A stretch of 64,000 nucleotides of DNA, taken from a phage. The DNA is taken from the sequence record PZ445431.1; one strand, 5' to 3'. Numbering within the stretch: the first letter of the stretch is position 1; the number at the start of each line of letters is the position of its first letter. A program made the position numbers and the translations under genes. Shown here piece after piece: positions 25,927-64,000 of this stretch. The notes beneath the pieces are model-generated. The model was not told where the DNA came from. It ran no database searches and worked only from the letters and a program-made list of their open reading frames with translations.

Positions 25927-26000
25927 ACATCCATAGCTCAATTGGTTAGAGCTACCGCCTCTTAAGCGGTAGGTTCTAGGTTCAAGTCCTTCATTGGAGA
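25927..26000 (+). tRNA. tRNA-Lys-like (anticodon CUU); acceptor/T stems imperfect
   Basis: Canonical D-arm GCTCAATTGGTTAGAGC and anticodon arm ACCGC-CTCTTAA-GCGGT; acceptor pairing poor by eye. Confidence 0.4.
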
Positions 26001-34396: not shown

Positions 34397-34412
34397 TGTA
34401 ATAAAATTTCAG

Positions 34413-34441
34413 TTGCTCAGATGCCACAAGTATTGTATAAT
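34413..34441 (+). promoter_or_regulatory. T5-type early promoter
   Basis: TTGCTC 34413-34418, TATAAT 34436-34441. Confidence 0.65.
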
Positions 34442-34472
34442 ATGTTTATAGATTGAGGCAAAAGGATAATTT

Positions 34473-35171
34473 ATGAGAATCATTTCAAAGTTCAATGATG
34501 TATACGATTTGCAGAATAGTTTATTTGATCCAGATCGTGTCTGGGAGCGTAAAACTGAAGAGCTGCGAGTAAAAGTAACTGACGATGTAGAAAAGAATAT
34601 CGTTCATAATCGTCAGGTGTTTCGTGAGGGTTCCTTATCCTTCCGTGGTGACTTCGAATACTCAGTAAATCCACTGTTTATTGCAGGCGAAGTTTACTGG
34701 TTACATGAACTGTCCTGCTGGCATCCAGCATTCAGTTTCAAAACGTTCAACATCGATGCTGTGTTCGATAAAATGGAAGAAATGGGATTACATGCCCGTT
34801 CTTACTTACTAGATAAGAATCGTGGTGATGTTCGTGAAACCATGCGAGATATGTTGGTTGAAGCAAAACCTAAAGCAGAACGTATCTTATCTGAACTGCG
34901 CGTACCAATTGCATATGTGAAAGGTATTAAGAAGAACGATAACGATGATGTTCGTAACTTCGTAATTCAGACAAACATTCGTTTCCATCAGTCAGGTATT
35001 CCGTGGCAGGAAATTGAAAGTAACTTATACCGTTTACACCAAGTTCTCGAACAGTATATCTTCGGTGTACTAGGAACTGGTGAGCCTGATATGATTACCG
35101 TATCAGATAAAGACAGGTTAGCAGCACATGGATTTGATACAAAAACTTCTTTCAGGAATATGGCAAGGTAA
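34473..35171 (+). CDS. hypothetical protein (232 aa)
   Basis: ATG after AAAAGGATAA and consensus promoter; no motif recognised. Confidence 0.6.
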   Translation: MRIISKFNDVYDLQNSLFDPDRVWERKTEELRVKVTDDVEKNIVHNRQVFREGSLSFRGDFEYSVNPLFIAGEVYWLHELSCWHPAFSFKTFNIDAVFDKMEEMGLHARSYLLDKNRGDVRETMRDMLVEAKPKAERILSELRVPIAYVKGIKKNDNDDVRNFVIQTNIRFHQSGIPWQEIESNLYRLHQVLEQYIFGVLGTGEPDMITVSDKDRLAAHGFDTKTSFRNMAR

Positions 35172-35577
35172 GTGGTATATCCTGGGAGCTGGTCTTGCGA
35201 TAGGTATCGGATTCGGTGCTTATCACTTAGTTAATAAGGTTGAGACTCTAGCAGGTGATCTTGCAGTTGCGACTAAAAAGATCTCCACTCTAGAGACTTC
35301 TCTTAATAAAGTGAAAACTGAGAGTGAACTTCGTGAGACTCGAATGAACCAGTATTTCACAATGAATAATATTTCGCAAGCAGATCTAGACAAAAAGATT
35401 AAGCAGTTAGATAAAGCTCTTAGTCGTCAAGATGTTATCGCTGCAAAGCCTGGATTGGTAACATTAATTGCTAAAAAGCAGAATAAAGAGTTCGAGGAAA
35501 GATTAGCGTGTTTAACTGGAAACTTGGAGTACTGCTCGCAGCCGCAATCACAATCACAGGCTGTGCAGAAGAAATAA
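35128..35577 (+). CDS. membrane-anchored coiled-coil protein, i-spanin-like
   Basis: N-terminal TM helix (WYILGAGLAIGIGFGAYHLV) then coiled coil; 3' end overlapped by a lipoprotein gene in another frame. Confidence 0.4.
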   Translation: MDLIQKLLSGIWQGKWYILGAGLAIGIGFGAYHLVNKVETLAGDLAVATKKISTLETSLNKVKTESELRETRMNQYFTMNNISQADLDKKIKQLDKALSRQDVIAAKPGLVTLIAKKQNKEFEERLACLTGNLEYCSQPQSQSQAVQKK

Positions 35578-35861
35578 AACCGGAGCCATCCCATGAGTTA
35601 AAGCAAGCTCATATAGATTGGCCTAAAGGACTTCAGCCGTGTAGCTTTGATTTCAAATTCGAAAAGAAATTAGCTACAAATGGTGAAGATGGCGTAGTAG
35701 TTGTTGTACCTTACAAAGATTGGAATGCAAAAGCAAAATGCGAGGAAGCAGTTTACTCTTACATTTCACGACTGACCGGTATGGTTTGCTTCTATCGTCA
35801 AGATTTACAAGAAAAACGTTGCTTAGTTTATTATCCACCCATTACAAATAGGAAAGATTAA
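35508..35861 (+). CDS. lipoprotein, o-spanin-like (embedded/overlapping arrangement)
   Basis: Signal peptide with lipobox LAAAITITGC; overlaps 3' end of preceding membrane protein. Confidence 0.4.
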   Translation: MFNWKLGVLLAAAITITGCAEEIKPEPSHELKQAHIDWPKGLQPCSFDFKFEKKLATNGEDGVVVVVPYKDWNAKAKCEEAVYSYISRLTGMVCFYRQDLQEKRCLVYYPPITNRKD

Positions 35862-36613
35862 TGTCAGTATTAGTCGGTTTACACGGTGAGGCTGGTGCGG
35901 GAAAAGATACCGTTGCAGAATTAATGATTGACTGGTGTAATGACACGTTCCCAACGTGTTTATCCCGTCGTTACAGTTTTGCTAAACCCGTTTACGAACT
36001 TGCATCCGTAATCCTCGGGGTAACTCCAGAGTTTCTGGGAGAGCGCAGGGGGAAAGAGATTGACCAATGGTTTACAGTCACACAATCTCAATTGGAGCGA
36101 GCTAGAGACATATGGTTTAAGTATGGTATCGATAAGTTTGAGGACTTCTCGTACGTTTGGCCTATTTTTGAAGGAAAATACCTTGATCCTCAGCAGTTAA
36201 TTGGGCAAGCTGATGATGCGCTGTATAGCGTGTTTATCTCCCCAAGAAAAATGCTACAGCTTGTAGGTACTGAGTTAGGAAGGCAGCTGGTGCATGAACG
36301 CATTTGGCTCATAATTCTGGAGCAATCCATCGATAAAGACGACCCAGACGTCGCAATCGTTACCGATGTGCGTTTTCCCAATGAGGGAGAGCTAATCATG
36401 GAAACCAATACTCTAGATATGGATTCCATACTTATTAAGGTTGAATCTGGTATTACTAATAAGTATCGCATCGAGACAGATCATCCGTCTGAAAGCGGTA
36501 TTCCTGAAAAATACATTTCTCATAAATTTGAGAATACCTTCAACGGACTTGATGCACTTCGTACCGATGTGTACCACTTCTGTGACTTAGAGCTAGAACC
36601 ACTAGTTGGATAA
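35861..36613 (+). CDS. dnk: deoxynucleoside monophosphate kinase
   Basis: P-loop GLHGEAGAGKDT at N-terminus, 250 aa, matching T5 dNMP kinase size and layout. Confidence 0.7.
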   Translation: MSVLVGLHGEAGAGKDTVAELMIDWCNDTFPTCLSRRYSFAKPVYELASVILGVTPEFLGERRGKEIDQWFTVTQSQLERARDIWFKYGIDKFEDFSYVWPIFEGKYLDPQQLIGQADDALYSVFISPRKMLQLVGTELGRQLVHERIWLIILEQSIDKDDPDVAIVTDVRFPNEGELIMETNTLDMDSILIKVESGITNKYRIETDHPSESGIPEKYISHKFENTFNGLDALRTDVYHFCDLELEPLVG

Positions 36614-36625
36614 TTAAGGATCACT

Positions 36626-37225
36626 ATGACTAACAAGAAAGAAGAAAAGACTAACCTGTTTCACACTGTTCGCCAATCTAATGAGTATACCTTTTTCTTT
36701 GACGAAGAGTTAGGCTCACCGGATGAGTATCGTGATCTATCAATGATACTGATGCAGGCTGGTGAAGATGATGAAATTAATCTGATGATTAATGGGCCTG
36801 GTGGTTACGTTGATACTGCTGCACAGCTATCTAACCTAATAGCTAACTGTCGTGGAACGGTTATTGGGCACCTGCTCGGTCCTAGTGCTTCTGCTTACTG
36901 CACAATCTTCCTATCTTGCCACGGTTGGGTTGTACATCCACATGCTACGCTTATGGGACATACGTTCTCTGGCGGATTCTGCGAGAAAGGTCAAGAAATC
37001 AAGAAAGCCTATGAATCCTACAACCAGTTTGTAGAAGATATGATGCTAGATATTTACTTTCCGTTCTTCTCTGTCGACGAAATCGAGGACATGGTAAAAG
37101 AGAATAAGAATATCTATCTCAACAGCAAAGAAATCAATAAGCGTATTGAAATTTTGGCGAATTATCGTAAAGAGCAGTGTAGTAAAGCTCAAGCCCCACA
37201 TCCAGAAGAACATGGAGAAGTGTAA
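36626..37225 (+). CDS. ClpP-like serine peptidase (S14 family-like)
   Basis: INLMINGPGGYVDTA (ClpP INSPGGVITAG), GPSASAYCTIFL (GQAASMG) and LMGHTFSGG (MIHQPLGG) blocks collinear with ClpP. Confidence 0.55.
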   Translation: MTNKKEEKTNLFHTVRQSNEYTFFFDEELGSPDEYRDLSMILMQAGEDDEINLMINGPGGYVDTAAQLSNLIANCRGTVIGHLLGPSASAYCTIFLSCHGWVVHPHATLMGHTFSGGFCEKGQEIKKAYESYNQFVEDMMLDIYFPFFSVDEIEDMVKENKNIYLNSKEINKRIEILANYRKEQCSKAQAPHPEEHGEV

Positions 37226-37233
37226 GTAGTTTT

Positions 37234-37267
37234 AAGCCAGAGTTTAACGACTCTGGCTTTTCTTTTG
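37234..37267 (+). terminator. rho-independent terminator
   Basis: AAGCCAGAG ... CTCTGGCTT stem followed by TTCTTTTG. Confidence 0.7.
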
Positions 37268-37327
37268 CCTAAAATTCTTCTTGACAACGACAAAAAATTG
37301 TGCTCCAGAAGTGATCTTAAAAAACAC

Positions 37328-37357
37328 ATTGTAATTTTACTCTAGAATTAGTATAAT
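37328..37357 (+). promoter_or_regulatory. candidate promoter upstream of holin (TTGTAA-N18-TATAAT)
   Basis: -10 TATAAT at 37352-37357. Confidence 0.4.
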
Positions 37358-37381
37358 GGTAGTGGTTAGAGGAGGTTACAA

Positions 37382-38038
37382 GTGGAAAAGTTTATACAAC
37401 TATTAACGATACTGCTACAAGAAGCGAAAGATCCAGCTTCACTACTAAAACGTCTGCTAACTATCTTAGTTGCTGTCATTATTTTCTTGTTTGTAAGTAA
37501 CACTAGCGAGGTGATGTCATTTTTAAAGACTTTCTCCACGTCTTCGGTTTTACAGGATGTTCAAACCCAAAGGATAGATAACTTTCCTAATGTAGCACGA
37601 GAAAAGAGTATGGTTCTTTTCTCCCAGACTGGTGCGGATGCCGTTTTTGTAGTAAAGTATAAACCAGATGCTATAAATGATTATTCAAACATTATTGCAT
37701 GGGAAAGCAATGCGCAATTGGATAGGGCTGACTTGGCCGATAAAGCAGTAAATAAGACGTCTGAACTTTATAGACGTCACCTGGAAGGCTTTAACTACGC
37801 TGCGGATTTAAGTGTAAAAGTAAATAAATATACGGGGTCAAATATACCAGCGTTTAAGAACATTACTTTTAATTACGTCTACACTTGTCCATATTTCAAC
37901 CTAAATAATATCTATGCTGGATACATAGGTATTGCATGGAAGGATAAACCCGTAGATACAGCTGATTCGGAACAATTTAATGAGTACTTAGCAAAGCTCT
38001 GTTCCCCACAACGGAGATCATTAGGTAGATCTATATGA
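37382..38038 (+). CDS. holin (T5-type, large)
   Basis: GTG start after AGAGGAGG; N-terminal TM helix; immediately upstream of and overlapping the endolysin gene. Confidence 0.6.
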   Translation: MEKFIQLLTILLQEAKDPASLLKRLLTILVAVIIFLFVSNTSEVMSFLKTFSTSSVLQDVQTQRIDNFPNVAREKSMVLFSQTGADAVFVVKYKPDAINDYSNIIAWESNAQLDRADLADKAVNKTSELYRRHLEGFNYAADLSVKVNKYTGSNIPAFKNITFNYVYTCPYFNLNNIYAGYIGIAWKDKPVDTADSEQFNEYLAKLCSPQRRSLGRSI

Positions 38039-38448
38039 GTTTTAAATTTGGTAAAAATAGCGAAAAACAATTAGCAACTGTTAAGCCCGAGCTACAGAAG
38101 GTAGCTCGTAGGGCTTTAGAATTATCTCCATATGATTTCATAATCGTACAGGGTATTCGTACAGTAGCACAAAGTGCCCAAAACATTGCTAATGGTACTT
38201 CATTTTTGAAAGACCCTAGCAAGAGTAAGCATGTAACTGGAGACGCTATCGATTTTGCACCATATATTAATGGAAAGATTGATTGGAAAGATCTGGAAGC
38301 ATTTTGGGCTGTTAAGAAGGCTTTTGAACAAGCCGGTAAGGAACTTGGTGTCAAACTTCGTTTTGGTGCCGACTGGAATAGTTCTGGTGATTATCATGAT
38401 GAGATCGATCGTGGTACTTACGACGGTGGTCACGTAGAATTAGTCTGA
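38035..38448 (+). CDS. lys: endolysin, L-alanyl-D-glutamate peptidase (M15 family)
   Basis: 137 aa with SKHVTGDAIDF and DGGHVEL zinc-binding motifs; size and motifs match T5 endolysin. Confidence 0.85.
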   Translation: MSFKFGKNSEKQLATVKPELQKVARRALELSPYDFIIVQGIRTVAQSAQNIANGTSFLKDPSKSKHVTGDAIDFAPYINGKIDWKDLEAFWAVKKAFEQAGKELGVKLRFGADWNSSGDYHDEIDRGTYDGGHVELV

Positions 38449-38458
38449 TAATAAATCA

Positions 38459-38482
38459 AGGCGGGGTAATTCCCGCCTTTTA
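38459..38482 (+). terminator. rho-independent terminator
   Basis: GGCGGG-GTAATT-CCCGCC followed by TTTT. Confidence 0.7.
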
Positions 38483-38523
38483 AAGCAAAGGGGGCTTTAA
38501 AAACTTAATGATAGGAGAAAGCC

Positions 38524-40332: not shown

Positions 40333-40713
40333 TTGAATTACGCATATCTTATAATACATAACAACGTGGTCTGTGGTACTCGTGCTGTAGAAATGGGAAT
40401 CACAGAAGAAAAATATAAGTCACTACCTGAAAAAGAGCAAGAATATTACGTTGAGCAAGCTGCTTGGGAATATGCTGAAGTTTATCCCGAAGAACGTGAA
40501 GGTCGTGTTACTATTGTTGTTGCTCTGGGGCTGGTGGGCTGTGATACCGAAGTTGATACAGATCTAGAAACACTTGAAGAATGGGAAGAGCTGGATATTG
40601 CAGAGCAAAATGCTATTATCCGTGAATCTTTCTGGGAAGCAGTAGACTGTCACGTTGTCTTTGAGCCAAACGATACAGAAGCTGAAAAACATACTAATTG
40701 GATGACTCGATAA
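40333..40713 (+). CDS. hypothetical acidic protein (126 aa)
   Basis: TTG start after conserved leader GAGAGGAGTATCACA; alternative ATG at about 40393. Confidence 0.45.
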   Translation: MNYAYLIIHNNVVCGTRAVEMGITEEKYKSLPEKEQEYYVEQAAWEYAEVYPEEREGRVTIVVALGLVGCDTEVDTDLETLEEWEELDIAEQNAIIRESFWEAVDCHVVFEPNDTEAEKHTNWMTR

Positions 40714-41576
40714 TGAAAAAAGAATTTAACCTGCATGAAATGTTAGTAGTACCAGACGATGTTAACCTGTTCTTCGTAGGAGATATTCACGGCTGTAATG
40801 ATATGCTGGAAGATGCTCTTAAACTAGCAGGATATAAAGAAAAGCGTGACTATGTTGTCTGTGTTGGCGACTTAATTGACCGTGGCCCGCAGAACTTACA
40901 GGTTCTAGCCAAATTCTTATATAACCCACGTTTCCGTAGCGTTCGTGGCAACCATGATCAGTTTATGATTGCCGGGGATTATGCCAACTGGATGTATAAT
41001 GGTGGAATGTGGGCAATGAATGATCTGGATACCGATACAATTAAAGGTATCGCAGAAGATATGGCAGTTAAAATGCCAGTATTCATGACTGTACTCCATC
41101 GTGGCAAGAAATACGGTATTGTTCATGGTGGAATACCATTCCAGTATAAAGATGCGGGATTCGATGTACATACACCTAATTGGGACGATATTATTGATCA
41201 TATCGCTGCAAGTGAAAATGATCCTAATGATCATCCTAGTTATTACATTGAGCCATATCTATGGGATCGTGATGTAATTCAGGAAATTGGGTTCATCCTA
41301 GCACGTGGAGGAGCTACTCATGAGTACTTCAATCGTTATGCTAGCTTTAAGAATCAGTTAGTAGTTGAAGTACCTCCAGTTAAAGGTGTGGACTATGTAT
41401 TCCATGGGCACACAGGTGTACCATACCCAATCCTGTACCAGAACCGCGTATACCTAGATACTGGCGGTGTGTTCAACGGGAAGTTGACGGTTGCGCAAGT
41501 TAATGATGAAGCCGGTAAGATTATGACATTTACCACAGATAAAAATGATAGCTGTGGTGTACAGAGGATTCTGTAA
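40713..41576 (+). CDS. serine/threonine protein phosphatase (calcineurin-like metallophosphoesterase, lambda-PPase type)
   Basis: GDIHGC, GDLIDRG, GNHD motifs. Confidence 0.8.
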   Translation: MKKEFNLHEMLVVPDDVNLFFVGDIHGCNDMLEDALKLAGYKEKRDYVVCVGDLIDRGPQNLQVLAKFLYNPRFRSVRGNHDQFMIAGDYANWMYNGGMWAMNDLDTDTIKGIAEDMAVKMPVFMTVLHRGKKYGIVHGGIPFQYKDAGFDVHTPNWDDIIDHIAASENDPNDHPSYYIEPYLWDRDVIQEIGFILARGGATHEYFNRYASFKNQLVVEVPPVKGVDYVFHGHTGVPYPILYQNRVYLDTGGVFNGKLTVAQVNDEAGKIMTFTTDKNDSCGVQRIL

Positions 41577-42088
41577 TGGCCGGTATTTCTCAGGAATACC
41601 TGAAGAGTAGACTAACCTATAATCCTGAAACATGGGAGTTTCGGTGGAAGCCTAACCCAAATGCTAGTAAAACATGGAATACTAGGTTTGCTGGTAAAGA
41701 AGCAGGTACTCTAAATAAAACTACCGGATATATCAATTTAACAATTGATGGGGTTAAGCATGGTGCACATAGAATGGCTTTCTTATACATGGAGGGCTAT
41801 TTACCTACTAAAGTGGATCACAAAGATACAATAAGAACAAATAATGCTTGGAGTAACCTTAGGGCTGCTGATAATGCTCAGAATACTTGGAATGCTGGTA
41901 TGAAAAGCTCCAATACTTCAGGATTTAAAGGTGTTTACTTAGATAAGCGTATAAATAAATATGTAGGTAGAGTTCGCTTTAGAGACAAAAGGTTCTCTAC
42001 TAAATATTATGAAAATGCTGAGGATGCAGCTAAAGAGTTGGAAATCCTTAGAGAACAGTTACATAAAGAATTTGCGAGGAATGAATAA
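41576..42088 (+). CDS. HNH homing endonuclease with AP2-type DNA-binding domain
   Basis: Same family as 6957, 28254, 39420; KVDHKDTIRTNNAWSNLR HNH core and AP2-like SGFKGVYLDK. Confidence 0.8.
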   Translation: MAGISQEYLKSRLTYNPETWEFRWKPNPNASKTWNTRFAGKEAGTLNKTTGYINLTIDGVKHGAHRMAFLYMEGYLPTKVDHKDTIRTNNAWSNLRAADNAQNTWNAGMKSSNTSGFKGVYLDKRINKYVGRVRFRDKRFSTKYYENAEDAAKELEILREQLHKEFARNE

Positions 42089-42686
42089 TGCGTGTTAAAT
42101 TCTGGTCGGATTTGCACTTAGACCACCCTGGAACTCTTCGCTTCCGTCCGTGGTTTAAGAATATGAAAGAACATGATGAATATATCCTAGATACTTTGTC
42201 CAAGCACATTGGCAAGCGTACTAAGCTCGTCTTGCTAGGGGATATTGCCGTGGGGCGTGAAGGGTTGGCTAAATTAAAGTCGGTTATCCACAATGTGCCT
42301 AACCAGTTAATCATGGGCAACCACGATGCTGAACGTCAGGGTCTGCATATTAAAGATCTTGTAGACGTTTATGATGATATTCAGGCTCTAGGTAAGCAAA
42401 CAGGTGGTGGCAAGAAGTTTTGGCTGTCACACTGTCACACTGTCCATTGCACGAAGCAGAACTTCGTGGTAAGCTAAACATTCACGGACATGTGCACACC
42501 AATTCTGTGCGCGACCCACGTTATATCAACATCTCTTTTGAGATGAGTAAGACTCCTATTCCTCTAGAAGATATTGTATCTGGCAAGTTCACAAGCTATG
42601 ATAGAGTAGTTAACTGCACTACTGGTGAAGTACTCCAAATCGATGAAGATGTGGCAGCAGTATTGAGGGGAGATATCAATGTTTGA
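42088..42686 (+). pseudogene. calcineurin-like metallophosphoesterase interrupted by a frameshift (8 bp tandem duplication)
   Basis: ORFs 42088..42477 (DLHLDH, GDIAVG, GNHD) and 42420..42686 (HGHVH) are two halves of one phosphoesterase; frames switch at CTGTCACA CTGTCACA (42424-42439); removing one copy restores ...FWLSHCPLHEAELRG... Confidence 0.65.
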
Positions 42687-61376: not shown

Positions 61377-61643
61377 TTACAAGTGACCAGATTGTTCTAG
61401 TTTAAATTTGCAATCACCATATTTGAGATCAAACTGTGACAAATCCCACCACCCAAACTTAGTGCGTAACTGAGTTTTAGGGAATCGGTAGCCCACAGTA
61501 CGTGCTTCTCGAATATCTAAAGCGTAGTGTTCTTCACCAACATGACCATAAGACTTCACATATGCCTTACAAAATGGCTCGGGAGCTGGCACACAACCCG
61601 TCAACACTACTGCTGCAACTACGATGGCTAGTAACTTTTTCAT
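61377..61643 (-). CDS. llp: lipoprotein, lytic-conversion (Llp-like) candidate
   Basis: Signal peptide with lipobox MKKLLAIVVAAVVLTGC; divergently adjacent to the pb5-like gene, as llp/oad in T5. Confidence 0.65.
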   Translation of the reverse strand: MKKLLAIVVAAVVLTGCVPAPEPFCKAYVKSYGHVGEEHYALDIREARTVGYRFPKTQLRTKFGWWDLSQFDLKYGDCKFKLEQSGHL

Positions 61644-61726: not shown

Positions 61727-63508
61727 ATGAGTTTTTTCGCAGGAAAATTTAGTGATGGTAAAACTGTATTATCTCTAAACGCTGCTAATGGTGGTGATAT
61801 AAATCAGCACTACTCTCCAAATACTAATAGTATCTTCCACTCAGATATGCCATTTGTCCTAGTTGATGGGACTTATGAAGCAGCCCTAGGTAACGCAGGT
61901 AATGGATACTTTGTTACTCAGATGCCTTGGGATATTATAAATATTAAATCCAATGATCCGGGTAGAGTTATATTAACTGCTATTGAGATAAACGGTACTC
62001 ATCGTGGATTTCTGAATGGTACTCAATCTCAGGTTGGCCAGTTCTTATCATTCTTTGAAGACCCACCACGTGCTGGTGCTGAATTATCTGTAACATCTGC
62101 TTTTGCGATCGGTGATAGTTTAGCTCATGGTACTTATATCTATAATGGTGGTCTTGGTCATGAGGAATCTATTGCTAGGCAAGGTTCTGGAGGCAGTTTA
62201 CTACAGTCCTCTGGTTTCCAGATCTTTAGACCTGGTGGTGTTTCTGCTGGTGAAGCCATTGCCAGAGCCTGGAGTCTTATGGGTTTTCCAACTGGTGTCT
62301 CTACTGTTCCTTTAGATGGTGGTAACGCAGATTATTGGGAACCTAACTGGCAGGCGCCTATTGGTTCTGCTGGTAGAGGCCATGATTGGTTTTATGTTTG
62401 TAGTTCTAATATTCGTGGCTTCGCAGGTAAAAAAGGCGTACTACCAGATAACGTAAACGTTCTTTACCAATCTCCTGCATACCCAGAAAAAATATATGTT
62501 TGTAGAGGTTCTACTTCTAATATGGCTGCTCAGTCTGCTAGAAAGGTATATGTACAGGACTGGTATAACGTTACGCCAACTAAGGTTATTTGGTATGTGC
62601 TAAATCTGCGCTATTCTAATGGTAGTATGGGAGTTTCTGGTAATCCATTTACCGGTTCAGATATCCTAATATCTCCGTCTAATTTTACTATTAAAGGTGT
62701 TAGCCTACCAAATACAGGCTATAAATTTATTAACCAGAATGCTTTCGGAAACTTAGGCTATCGCCCTGATATGGAGTATGTTGGTAATAACGCTGCGTAT
62801 ACCGGAGTTTTTGGTGATAATACTGCACGATGTGAATTTATCGGCTCTAGTAATGGCGGGTTGTGGTCTCCTGTTAACTATGGGGGTGCAGCTTCTCAAA
62901 TTAGCTTATATAAATTTGGTATAGGTAAACAATGGTATGTAGATACTAATACCAACTCCATTGGTAATGAACATGGACCTGTGTGGAGTCCTAGTACTGT
63001 ACCCCTCAGGTTATTCCCAGGCAACGTTGCAAGTACTTATGTAGGGGACGATATAACTCCATCCTACCCTGGTGCTGGTGACTTCTACACACCTTTGGCC
63101 ACAGTTTGGTTGGGATTACCAAATGCTCACTCTACTGTTATATTAACTACTGAAGTTATTATGGGTAATCTTAATACTGCTGGAATGCCTGTGCGTACTT
63201 ACGGCGGTAGCGCTTGGCAGGTACAAGGTAGACGTCAACAAAGTTATACAGCTGGTGATGGTGTATTCCACCAGATTCTTACTCTGCCACCTGGATATCT
63301 AGTACCTTATCACAGTACAACTTCCTATAGTTATATACAGACTTGGGCTAGTAGGCCTGATGAGTTTGCTTTCCGTAGGAACGGATATATTTATACTATT
63401 AAAAACCTTGGTAATGGCAACGTTGAGTTGGGTGTTATCATTCACGCTGCAGAAGCGGCAGCTGTTTTCTTGCCAAGACTACGTGTAACAGTTCAACGCC
63501 TAACCTAA
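61727..63508 (+). CDS. oad: receptor-binding tail protein, pb5-like
   Basis: 593 aa; N-terminus [41 protein letters not shown] follows the T5 pb5 N-terminal pattern as I recall it; divergent from llp-like gene. Confidence 0.65.
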
Positions 63509-63518
63509 AGGAGGATAT

Positions 63519-64000
63519 ATGGCAAATGATGTATTAGTTCCCGATCTCATGTCTCCCGAAGGCATGGATGTTATTGAAGCCTATTTACAGTGCGGTAGTG
63601 ATGTTCCTGCCGCCGCTCGTAGTCTTGGAATGTCCGAGATTGCATTCCGTGATATAATGAATCGTGGGGAAGTTAAAAACTATCTCAACGATATCTTTAT
63701 GGAAAGTGGCTTCCGTAATCGTGACCGCTTATTCGGAGTTCTTGACGAAGTTATCAAGCGTAAGCTGGAAGAACTTGAAGAAACTGGCATGGGTTCTGAC
63801 CAGGATATCATGGATATTCTCTGGAAGGCGCACAAGATGAAGATGGAAGAAATGAAAATGATGGTAGAACTGGAGAAAGTGAAGGCAGCAGCCCGTACTC
63901 CGGCTAACCAGACTAATATTCAGAATAATATTATTGCTGGAAGTGGTGACGAAAACTATATGAATCTTATTACCGCTCTAGCAGGAGGAGGTAAGAGATA
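63519..64000 (+). CDS. putative terminase small subunit-like protein, partial (3' end beyond window)
   Basis: AGGAGGA RBS; N-terminal helix-turn-helix-like segment ([21 protein letters not shown]) and charged coiled-coil region. Confidence 0.4.

What the first reader, a model, noticed from the sequence alone, without database searches (positions are those of the whole stretch)
35128..35861. Overlapping TM coiled-coil protein plus lipoprotein (spanin-like pair) located away from holin/endolysin
A membrane-anchored coiled-coil protein (35128-35577) is overlapped at its 3' end by a lipoprotein gene with lipobox ITGC (35508-35861), the classic i-spanin/o-spanin architecture. Yet holin and endolysin lie 1.5 kb downstream, separated by dNMP kinase and the ClpP-like gene. 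The lipoprotein is long and Cys-rich for an o-spanin, so another envelope function is possible.
Basis: inference. Interest (0 to 1): 0.4.

Follow-up and report, generated by a model that had tools for sequence, protein, structure and literature searches.

The report
T5-type two-component spanin gene pair
These two overlapping genes are the already annotated spanin pair of a T5-like phage, a variant of the tested phage T4 spanin that breaks the host outer membrane as the last step of lysis, so the finding is real but ordinary.

Summary
Window 35128-35577 (+) encodes a 149-aa protein with one N-terminal membrane helix and a heptad-repeat helix. Window 35508-35861 (+) encodes a 117-aa lipoprotein with lipobox ITGC. 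The two genes share 70 bp.

The window is 100% identical to Escherichia phage TrudiRoth (Bas30, Epseptimavirus, T5-like). That record already annotates these two genes as i-spanin and o-spanin. Kongari et al. 2018 describe this "T5 family" of spanins with a 70-bp overlap.

Both proteins are homologues of T4 PseT.3/PseT.2: same PHROGs, Pfam PF26831 "Phage_T4_Spanin", hhalign 99.7%. The T4 pair complements lambda Rz/Rz1 mutants.

The distance from holin and endolysin is a conserved trait. The order spanins, dNMP kinase, Clp-like protease, holin, endolysin is the same in T5, Sugarland, DU_PP_V and a Proteus phage. T4 spanins are also unlinked from t and e.

"Long and Cys-rich" is normal for this family. 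C94 and C105 match the essential T4 cysteines. C45 and C78 are a clade-specific extra pair that co-occurs with a C-x7-C tail on the i-spanin.

A separate Llp-like lipoprotein sits next to the receptor-binding gene, so nothing points to another envelope role. No T5-type spanin has been tested directly.

Verdict: already known, low interest.

The parts
35128..35577 (+). i-spanin gene, 149 aa. Predicted type II inner-membrane protein: short N-terminal cytoplasmic tail, one membrane helix, helical periplasmic domain.
   Evidence: ORF. Annotated 'i-spanin' bas30_0148. PHROG 739, E 3e-38. BLASTP to a T4-like PseT.3: 29% identity, E 7e-7.
35176..35232 (+). Membrane helix of the i-spanin, residues 17-35 (YILGAGLAIGIGFGAYHLV).
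   Evidence: Best 19-residue Kyte-Doolittle window, mean 1.55.
35215..35331 (+). Heptad-repeat (coiled-coil-like) helix of the i-spanin, residues about 30-68.
   Evidence: 8 of 8 a/d positions are hydrophobic in every 28-residue window starting at residues 30-38. T4 PseT.3 is likewise reported to have coiled-coil propensity only in its first periplasmic helix.
35431..35460 (+). Conserved motif D-V-I-A-A-K-P-G-L-V, residues 102-111, shared with T4 PseT.3 (DVVARKPGLV).
   Evidence: K107 is invariant and L110 is in 54 of 58 sequences. Alignments.
35509..35535 (+). C-terminal C-L-T-G-x4-C motif of the i-spanin (C128...C136). It lies inside the overlap and is absent from T4-type i-spanins.
   Evidence: 20 of 58 family members have it. 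The other 38 have no periplasmic Cys and no counterpart of the segment that carries C136 (Glu in 37 at the C128 position).
35508..35577 (+). 70-bp overlap. It encodes i-spanin residues 128-149 plus the stop codon, and o-spanin residues 1-23 in the +2 frame.
   Evidence: Kongari 2018 reports the same 70-bp overlap for T5. Only 4% nucleotide divergence from T5 here.
35494..35499 (+). Shine-Dalgarno-like GAGGAA ahead of the o-spanin GTG start.
   Evidence: Sequence. A ribosome-binding site is annotated at the equivalent place in phage Seafire.
35508..35861 (+). o-spanin gene, 117-aa precursor. Predicted outer-membrane lipoprotein with a 99-aa mature form.
   Evidence: ORF. Annotated 'o-spanin' bas30_0149. 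PHROG 812, E 7e-30. hhalign of T5-type against T4-type PseT.2 profiles: 99.7%, E 1.4e-25. Homologues carry Pfam PF26831 Phage_T4_Spanin.
35553..35564 (+). Lipobox I-T-G-C (residues 16-19). Cys19 is the predicted lipid-modified first residue of the mature protein. The +2 residue is Ala.
   Evidence: Cys19 is invariant in 63 of 63 sequences, and the +2 residue is never Asp.
35640..35741 (+). Span from the Cys45 codon (35640-35642) to the Cys78 codon (35739-35741): the clade-specific extra cysteine pair.
   Evidence: The two cysteines co-occur in 8 of 8 sequences. In the other 55 they are replaced by Y/W/H and W/E/Q. Both are invariant in 21 T5-type sequences.
35787..35822 (+). Span from the Cys94 codon (35787-35789) to the Cys105 codon (35820-35822): equivalents of T4 PseT.2 C87 and C98 within the motif C-F-Y-R-x-D-L-x-E-x-R-C.
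   Evidence: Invariant in 63 of 63 sequences. They align to C87 and C98, which are essential in T4 (Kongari 2018).
35861..37225 (+). Context: dNMP kinase gene (35861-36613; its ATG overlaps the o-spanin TAA as TAATG) and Clp-like protease gene (36626-37225). These separate the spanins from the holin gene.
37234..37259 (+). Terminator-like hairpin (11 pairs followed by a T-run) directly after the Clp-like gene.
   Evidence: A terminator is annotated at the same place in Sugarland.
37329..37357 (+). Promoter-like site TTGTAA-17-TATAAT ahead of the holin gene.
   Evidence: A putative promoter is annotated at the same place in T5. The overall number of consensus hits does not exceed the shuffled expectation.
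37382..38448 (+). Context: T-type holin gene (37382-38038) and M15-type peptidase endolysin gene (38035-38448).
   Evidence: Pfam Phage_holin_T, E 8e-111, and Peptidase_M15_4. PHROG 860 and 465.

Best explanation
This is the two-component spanin of a T5-like phage, Escherichia phage TrudiRoth (Bas30) or a near-identical isolate.

The mechanism below is inferred from the lambda and T4 paradigms.
- The i-spanin is anchored in the inner membrane by its N-terminal helix. It extends a helical, partly coiled-coil domain into the periplasm.
- The o-spanin is made with a type II signal peptide, lipid-modified at Cys19, cleaved, and sorted to the inner leaflet of the outer membrane. Sorting there is expected because the +2 residue is Ala, not Asp.
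- The C-terminal parts of the two proteins bind each other, so the complex spans the periplasm threaded through the peptidoglycan mesh.
- The complex is harmless until the T-type holin releases the endolysin and the wall is degraded. It then fuses or disrupts the outer membrane and completes lysis.
- Disulfide bonds made by the host Dsb system stabilise the complex. C94 and C105 are the counterparts of the two cysteines that are essential in T4 PseT.2.

The pair is a T5-type elaboration of the T4 PseT.3/PseT.2 spanin.
- The i-spanin carries an extra C-terminal C-x7-C tail. In T5 and its close relatives this tail has grown 70 bp into the o-spanin gene.
- The o-spanin carries an extra cysteine pair, C45 and C78.

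The spanin genes sit with dnk and a Clp-like protease gene, upstream of a terminator-like hairpin. The holin and endolysin genes follow a promoter-like site of their own.

Shown here: sequence features, homology, conservation and gene order. Inferred: localisation, complex formation, disulfide pattern and lytic function.
For: - Identity and prior annotation. The region is 100% identical to MZ501109.1, where the genes are annotated i-spanin and o-spanin. Those annotations were made with the SpaninDataBase (Maffei 2021, PMC8594841).
- Family assignment. PHROG 739 (E 3e-38) and PHROG 812 (E 7e-30) are both 'Rz-like spanin'. [quoted passage not shown]
- Homology to T4. BLASTP to the T4-like pair gives E 7e-7 and 6e-8. 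A profile-profile comparison of the o-spanins gives 99.7% probability, E 1.4e-25, over the full length. All homologues carry Pfam PF26831 'Phage_T4_Spanin'.
- Experimental anchor. T4 PseT.3/PseT.2 complement lambda RzamRz1am, and PseT.2 C87 and C98 are essential (Kongari 2018, PMC6139136). The T5 family with a 70-bp overlap is described in the same paper.
- Sequence features. Membrane helix, heptads, lipobox and +2 Ala are present. Cys19, Cys94 and Cys105 are invariant in 63 sequences, and the +2 residue is never Asp.
- Structure. The AlphaFold2 model of the o-spanin (mean pLDDT 78.6) shows a beta hairpin at 50-66 and a helix at 69-96. This resembles the beta-alpha organisation reported for PseT.2. 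Its structural neighbours among viral models include annotated o-spanins and a PseT.2; several top hits are unnamed.
- Purifying selection acts on both frames, and divergence is reduced in the overlap.
- Gene order is conserved across Demerecviridae.
Against: - I found no experiment on a T5-type spanin in the literature searched. Function rests on homology at about 20-30% identity to the tested T4 pair.
- The local Pfam and NCBIfam libraries gave no significant hit. There is no solved structure by sequence or fold search.
- The i-spanin model was unusable (pLDDT 49), so the coiled coil rests on a simple heptad count.
- The i-o interaction and the disulfide pattern were not modelled.
- The promoter and terminator matches are consensus hits only. 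Their total number is no higher than in shuffled sequence.
Confidence: 0.93

Rival explanations
1. The lipoprotein has a different or additional envelope role, such as receptor blocking or superinfection exclusion like T5 Llp or Cor. On this view the membrane protein upstream is only coincidentally adjacent.
For: The mature protein is fairly large (99 aa) and folded: a beta hairpin plus a helix with pLDDT around 90 over residues 40-110. It has four cysteines and is not next to the holin and endolysin genes. No T5-type spanin has been tested.
Against: - Its only family matches are spanins.
- It is a full-length homologue of the tested T4 o-spanin.
- It is always paired with the i-spanin homologue across divergent phages.
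- The window has a separate small lipoprotein with lipobox LTGC, annotated 'superinfection exclusion protein'. It lies divergently beside the receptor-binding protein gene, which is the position Llp-type genes occupy in T5 (my recollection, not checked here).
Confidence: 0.03
2. The pair is a conserved but non-essential or inactive relic, and outer-membrane disruption in T5-like phages is done by something else.
For: I found no direct experiment. The genes may form a unit separate from holin and endolysin, going by a terminator-like hairpin and a promoter-like site between them.
Against: - Both frames are under purifying selection.
- The lipobox and cysteines are invariant across 63 diverse sequences.
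- The pair is retained in every Demerecviridae locus examined and in metagenomic relatives.
- In my recollection, spanins of other phages are also made well before lysis and stay inert until the wall is degraded, so co-transcription with holin and endolysin would not be required.
Confidence: 0.03

Closest known systems
Phage T5 spanin pair T5p044/T5p043: the 'T5 family' of overlapped two-component spanins (Kongari et al. 2018, PMC6139136), which includes EPS7, the name-giving phage of the genus Epseptimavirus
   Same: - The overlap is the same 70 bp.
- The o-spanin is 89.7% identical and the i-spanin 86% identical.
- The lipobox (ITGC), all six periplasmic cysteines, and the flanking dnk, Clp-like, holin and endolysin genes are the same.
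   Different: - The cytoplasmic N-terminal tail of the i-spanin differs.
- T5 has an HNH endonuclease gene (T5p045) inserted just upstream.
- The o-spanin start codon is GTG here and ATG in T5.
[quoted passage not shown]
   Same: - Both proteins are homologous over their full length.
- The KPGLV motif in the i-spanin is shared.
- The C-x10-C pair in the o-spanin equals the essential C87 and C98.
- The o-spanin has a beta-alpha fold.
- The genes are unlinked from holin and endolysin.
- Both phage groups use a T-type holin.
   Different: - In T4-type phages the genes are separated or share only 4 bp.
- The T4 i-spanin has no cysteine and lacks the segment carrying the second cysteine.
- The T4 o-spanin has an aromatic residue in place of C45, and mostly Trp in place of C78.
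Lambda Rz/Rz1 (the embedded two-component spanin)
   Same: The logic is the same: an inner-membrane type II protein with coiled-coil character plus an outer-membrane lipoprotein, with periplasmic cysteines. T4-family spanins can replace Rz/Rz1.
   Different: - No detectable sequence similarity was seen; Pfam gave no Rz or Rz1 hit.
- Rz1 is reported as unstructured and is wholly embedded in Rz.
- Here the o-spanin is a folded 99-aa domain and only 70 bp are shared.
T5 Llp-type lytic-conversion lipoprotein
   Same: It is also a small phage-encoded outer-membrane lipoprotein with cysteines.
   Different: Llp blocks the phage's receptor. By my recollection its gene lies next to the receptor-binding protein gene. 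This window has its own candidate of that kind at 61377-61643 on the minus strand. The o-spanin showed only spanin family matches.

Membership tests
Two-component spanin (i-spanin plus o-spanin) | The i-spanin is an inner-membrane protein with a single N-terminal membrane helix and a periplasmic C-terminal domain. | tested here: met
   There is one hydrophobic helix at residues 17-35. The orientation is inferred from homology to PseT.3 and from the C-terminal cysteines; it was not measured.
Two-component spanin (i-spanin plus o-spanin) | The periplasmic domain of the i-spanin is largely helical with coiled-coil propensity. | tested here: inconclusive
   A simple heptad count is perfect over residues 30-68. 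No dedicated coiled-coil predictor was available. The AlphaFold2 monomer model is helical but of low confidence, pLDDT 49.
Two-component spanin (i-spanin plus o-spanin) | The o-spanin has a type II signal peptide with a lipobox [LVI][ASTVI][GAS]C. | tested here: met
   ITGC with Cys19. The Cys is invariant in 63 of 63 sequences and Gly18 is in 61 of 63. The consensus is as quoted in Kongari 2018.
Two-component spanin (i-spanin plus o-spanin) | The lipoprotein is sorted to the outer membrane. | not testable with these tools
   By the +2 sequence rule it qualifies: the +2 residue is Ala here and never Asp across the family. Localisation itself needs membrane fractionation.
Two-component spanin (i-spanin plus o-spanin) | The two genes are adjacent, in an embedded, overlapped or separated arrangement. 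| tested here: met
   Overlapped by 70 bp.
Two-component spanin (i-spanin plus o-spanin) | Periplasmic cysteines are available for disulfide-linked complexes. | tested here: met
   Two in the i-spanin and four in the o-spanin. The actual bonding pattern was not determined.
Two-component spanin (i-spanin plus o-spanin) | The pair is required for outer-membrane disruption, shown by a spherical-cell phenotype or by complementation of lambda RzamRz1am. | not testable with these tools
   Shown for the homologous T4 pair only (Kongari 2018). I found no experiment on a T5-type pair.
T5 spanin family (Kongari 2018; at least 40% identity over the periplasmic domain) | Sequence identity to the T5 i- and o-spanins above the family threshold, with the overlapped architecture. 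| tested here: met
   86% and 89.7% identity to T5 over the full-length proteins. Both have a 70-bp overlap.
T4 PseT.3/PseT.2 superfamily (PHROG 739 and 812; Pfam PF26831) | Significant profile match of both proteins. | tested here: met
   PF26831 is precomputed on all o-spanin homologues but is not in the local Pfam copy.
T4 PseT.3/PseT.2 superfamily (PHROG 739 and 812; Pfam PF26831) | The two C-terminal o-spanin cysteines equivalent to the essential C87 and C98. | tested here: met
   C94 and C105 are invariant in 63 of 63 sequences and align to C87 and C98.
T4 PseT.3/PseT.2 family in the narrow sense (Kongari 2018) | Separated genes, a cysteine-free i-spanin, and a two-cysteine o-spanin. | tested here: not met
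   Here there is a 70-bp overlap, C-x7-C in the i-spanin, and four cysteines in the o-spanin. It is therefore filed under the T5 family, not the narrow T4 family.
Llp/Cor-type receptor-blocking lipoprotein | The gene is adjacent to the receptor-binding protein gene, with homology to such proteins. | tested here: not met
   The receptor-binding protein gene is about 26 kb away, at 61727-63508, with its own neighbouring lipoprotein gene. The only family matches are spanins.

The most novel reading that the evidence does not exclude
The T5-type spanin may use a disulfide architecture that differs from both lambda and T4.

In all 7 paired loci that have the four-cysteine o-spanin, the i-spanin also has the C-terminal C-L-T-G-x4-C tail. 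In all 3 paired loci with the two-cysteine o-spanin, the i-spanin has no cysteine at all.

The coupled gain could mean a covalent heterotypic i-spanin to o-spanin link. The spanin disulfide bonds characterised so far, in lambda and T4, are homotypic. Alternatively it could mean a second, i-spanin-based homodimer lock.

Against the more exciting version:
- C45 and C78 are replaced together, by an aromatic residue (Y/W/H) and by Trp (or E/Q), in T4-type proteins. That pattern looks like an internal contact turned into an intramolecular disulfide.
- The four-cysteine clade may be monophyletic. In that case the co-occurrence would be one evolutionary event rather than repeated coupling.
Probability: 0.12. 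Interest if true: 0.35.

Novelty: already known. Interest (0 to 1): 0.08.

Why it matters
It matters little beyond correct annotation. The pair completes the lysis gene set of this phage: T-type holin, peptidase endolysin and spanin.

It also shows that lysis genes of large virulent phages need not be clustered, which is already appreciated for T4 and T5.

The only mildly useful by-product is the link between the untested T5-type spanins and the tested T4 pair. With it comes a clade-specific, apparently coupled addition of cysteines to both subunits. That could guide disulfide-mapping experiments on spanin complexes.

Tried and rejected
- Local Pfam-A and NCBIfam scans of both proteins found nothing significant. 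The relevant Pfam family, PF26831, appears only as a precomputed label on homologues.
- Sequence search of the PDB and fold search of the PDB with the o-spanin model gave no meaningful match.
- The single-sequence word-indexed protein search gave only 5 close relatives. An alignment query that included T4-type sequences was needed to reach 64.
- The exhaustive phmmer search of 1.8 billion cluster representatives gave only 19 hits at E up to 1e-3 for the single sequence. These served to confirm the cysteine pattern.
- The AlphaFold2 model of the i-spanin monomer had pLDDT 49 and was discarded.
- Model coordinates are not exposed to scripts. The C45-C78 distance could therefore not be measured, and the intramolecular-disulfide idea rests on covariation only.
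- Llp-like function was considered and rejected.
- The promoter and terminator scan did not exceed the shuffled expectation overall. Only the two sites that coincide with features annotated in T5 and Sugarland are reported, and only as consensus matches.
- Literature searches found no functional test of a T5-type spanin.
Full report
**1. What is in the sequence**

The first ORF is 35128-35577 (ATG start, 149 aa).
- It has one strongly hydrophobic stretch, residues 17-35, YILGAGLAIGIGFGAYHLV.
- This is followed by a polar sequence whose residues 30-68 keep an unbroken a/d heptad pattern.
- The protein ends in ...ERLACLTGNLEYCSQPQSQSQAVQKK.

The second ORF is 35508-35861 (GTG start, GAGGAA 9 nt upstream, 117 aa).
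- It begins MFNWKLGVLLAAAITITGC/AEE..., a signal peptide with lipobox ITGC.
- This fits the consensus [LVI][ASTVI][GAS]C quoted by Kongari et al..
- Ala follows the lipid-modified Cys19.
- The mature protein would be 99 aa, with cysteines at 45, 78, 94 and 105.

The two ORFs share 70 bp, with the second in the +2 frame. Its TAA overlaps the ATG of the next gene as TAATG.

**2. The ORFs are real genes**

I compared the window with phage T5.
- In the non-overlapping parts, codons with synonymous-only changes outnumber non-synonymous ones: 27 to 10 for the o-spanin frame and 20 to 8 for the i-spanin frame.
- The overlap has only 3 differences in about 70 nt (4%), against 9-17% elsewhere.

This is the pattern expected for two translated frames. 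Both proteins are also recognisably conserved in much more distant phages.

**3. Where the window comes from, and what is already annotated**

Window 34400-38500 is 100% identical to Escherichia phage TrudiRoth (Bas30; MZ501109.1 and NC_105117.1; Demerecviridae, Markadamsvirinae, Epseptimavirus).
- In that record the two ORFs are bas30_0148 'i-spanin' and bas30_0149 'o-spanin'.
- The BASEL collection paper states that spanins were annotated with the SpaninDataBase (PMC8594841).
- Many close relatives carry 'Rz-like spanin', 'i-spanin' or 'o-spanin' labels at the same place.
- Kongari et al. 2018 (PMC6139136) explicitly describe a 'T5 family' of two-component spanins. It includes EPS7, T5, DT57C and others, and they report that the T5 genes overlap by 70 bp, the same number found here.

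The finding is therefore already known at the level of this exact locus.

**4. Family relationships**

- PHROG scans place the two proteins in phrog_739 (E 3e-38) and phrog_812 (E 7e-30), both 'Rz-like spanin'.
- T4-type PseT.3 and PseT.2, taken from a Tequatrovirus and from Edwardsiella phage PEi26, fall in the same two PHROGs at E 1e-35 to 1e-43. So does the pair of Vibrio phage Dax, at E 2e-22 and 2e-24.
- Direct BLASTP of the window proteins against the T4-like pair gives 29% identity, with E 6e-8 for the o-spanin and 7e-7 for the i-spanin.
- tblastn hits between T5-like and T4-like o-spanins are reciprocal.
- A profile-profile comparison of 21 T5-type against 31 T4-type o-spanins gives 99.7% probability, E 1.4e-25, over 98 aligned columns.
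- All 64 database homologues of the o-spanin carry Pfam PF26831, named 'Phage_T4_Spanin'. This family is missing from the local Pfam copy, which explains the empty Pfam scan.

Kongari et al. kept the T5 and T4 families apart because their threshold was 40% identity. PHROGs and Pfam merge them.

The link matters because the T4 pair is experimentally validated. It complements lambda RzamRz1am, and PseT.2 C87 and C98 are both essential.

**5. Conserved features**

o-spanin, 63 sequences:
- Cys19, Cys94 and Cys105 are invariant.
- Cys94 and Cys105 align with T4 C87 and C98 in the motif C-(F/Y)-Y-R-x-(D/E)-L-x-E-x-(R/K)-C.
- The residue after the lipid-modified Cys is A, S, T, V, G or N, and never Asp.

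i-spanin, 58 sequences:
- K107 is invariant.
- The motif D-(V/I)-(V/I)-A-x-K-P-G-L-V is shared with T4 PseT.3.

Structure:
- The AlphaFold2 model of the o-spanin (63-sequence alignment, mean pLDDT 78.6, about 90 over residues 40-110) has a beta hairpin at 50-66 followed by a long helix at 69-96. This resembles the beta-alpha-beta organisation reported for PseT.2.
- It has no counterpart in the PDB.
- Among predicted viral structures, the named neighbours with E up to 1e-3 are an uncharacterised Salmonella phage protein, the Providencia phage PR1 o-spanin, Shigella phage Sf25 'Rz1' and Acinetobacter phage 133 PseT.2. Five others carry no name in the tables at hand.
- The i-spanin monomer model was of too low confidence to use.

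**6.

(a) Distance from holin and endolysin.
- The order hypothetical gene, i-spanin, o-spanin, dnk, Clp-like protease, holin, endolysin is identical in T5 (T5p046...T5p039, with an HNH endonuclease inserted before the i-spanin) and in Klebsiella phage Sugarland. From the i-spanin gene onward it is also the same in Pectobacterium phage DU_PP_V and Proteus phage VTCCBPA139.
- In T4 the spanin genes are also not near t and e.
- In the window, a terminator-like hairpin (37234-37259) follows the Clp-like gene, and a near-consensus promoter-like site (37329-37357) precedes the holin gene. These coincide with a terminator annotated in Sugarland and a putative promoter annotated in T5.
- This suggests two transcription units. 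The matches are consensus hits only.
- Making spanins ahead of lysis is not a problem in the accepted model, because the complex is inert until the wall is degraded. This rests on my knowledge of the lambda system, not on anything tested here.

(b) Length and cysteines.
- Mature o-spanins of this superfamily are 81-99 aa in the loci examined.
- Four periplasmic cysteines is the known maximum for o-spanins and occurs in 35 of 526 catalogued systems.
- The extra pair, C45 and C78, is clade-specific. The two co-occur in 8 of 8 sequences, and in the other 55 they are replaced by Y/W/H and W/E/Q. Both are invariant in 21 T5-type sequences, including cluster representatives from the exhaustive search.
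- The joint replacement of C45 by an aromatic residue and of C78 mostly by Trp suggests the two positions touch in the fold, and that C45-C78 is an intramolecular disulfide. This is an inference; I could not measure the distance in the model.

**7. A small extra: coupled change in the i-spanin**

- T4-type and Vibrio T5-like i-spanins end at ...E-(L/A)-T-x and have no cysteine. T5-type i-spanins continue with C-L-T-G-x4-C (20 of 58 sequences).
- In the ten loci where both genes could be read together, the C-x7-C tail and the four-cysteine o-spanin always go together.
  - Seven loci have both: the window, T5, Sugarland, DU_PP_V, the Proteus phage, and two metagenomic contigs, L011 and L013.
  - Three loci have neither: Vibrio phage Dax, a T4-like phage and PEi26.
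- In T5 and its close relatives the tail, plus a variable stretch (SQPQSQSQAVQKK), runs 70 bp into the o-spanin gene. As a result the i-spanin CLTGN codons and the o-spanin MFNWK codons are the same nucleotides.
- The N-W-K/R start of the o-spanin is conserved where the overlap is long (34-88 bp). It is absent in L011 and L013, where the overlap is only 10-13 bp.
- This fits the view that the overlapped architecture arose by C-terminal extension of the i-spanin.
- The co-occurrence may reflect a single ancestral event, so it is weak evidence for functional coupling.

**8. Alternative function**

The window carries a separate 88-aa lipoprotein (MKKLLAIVVAAVVLTGC...) at 61377-61643 on the minus strand.
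- It is annotated 'superinfection exclusion protein'.
- It lies divergently next to the receptor-binding tail tip protein gene at 61727-63508.
- By my recollection this is the position Llp occupies in T5. quotes Llp's receptor-blocking function (Decker 1994) but not its position.

Nothing in the o-spanin points to such a role.

**9. Verdict**

The supposed oddities are family traits. The locus is already annotated and the family already described.

What remains untested anywhere, as far as the searched literature shows, is direct function and the disulfide pattern of a T5-type spanin.

Noticed in passing
window about 25934-25990: The window lacks 979 bp that are present in GenBank MZ501109.1. 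The missing piece lies between two direct copies of a tRNA-Lys gene (locus L010 927-1003 and 1906-1982). It holds three small hypothetical genes (bas30_0112, bas30_0114, bas30_0115), a tRNA-Gly and one tRNA-Lys copy. The window is otherwise 100% identical over the parts compared. It therefore looks like a repeat-mediated deletion variant or an assembly difference.
   Followed up: partly
window 63519-64000: The window runs 482 bases past the end of the linear GenBank record. An ORF starts at about 63521 ([15 protein letters not shown]...). The window's source therefore seems to be a circularly joined or differently permuted copy of the genome. A relative's record lists 'putative terminase small subunit' among its features under the match.
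   Followed up: partly
window 61377-61643 (-) and 61727-63508 (+): There is a small lipoprotein gene (88 aa, lipobox LTGC, annotated 'superinfection exclusion protein'). It lies divergently beside the receptor-binding tail tip protein gene, an Llp-like arrangement. It has no Pfam match.
   Followed up: partly
window 36626-37225; loci L012 848-1468 and L013 3979-4728: A Clp-like protease gene closely follows the spanin pair. This holds in all Demerecviridae loci examined except Vibrio phage Dax, and in two metagenomic contigs that lack the dNMP kinase gene between them. The spanin to Clp-like protease linkage is thus more conserved than the spanin to holin linkage. Its meaning is unknown.
   Followed up: partly
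window 34473-35171 (+): A conserved 232-aa protein of unknown function (PHROG 4243, no Pfam match) overlaps the i-spanin start by 44 bp. In T5 an HNH endonuclease gene (T5p045) is inserted between this gene and the i-spanin, and the i-spanin's cytoplasmic N-terminal tail is different there.
   Followed up: partly
window about 40713-41576 and 42088-42477 (+): Two separate genes are annotated 'serine/threonine phosphatase' (bas30_0159 and bas30_0160), with an unannotated gap of about 510 bp between them. This could be a split or interrupted gene.
   Followed up: no
window 38458-38479 (-): A GC-rich terminator-like hairpin (8 pairs, 6 of them G-C) lies just after the endolysin gene. It was scored on the minus strand, and its palindromic stem could act in both directions.
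   Followed up: no
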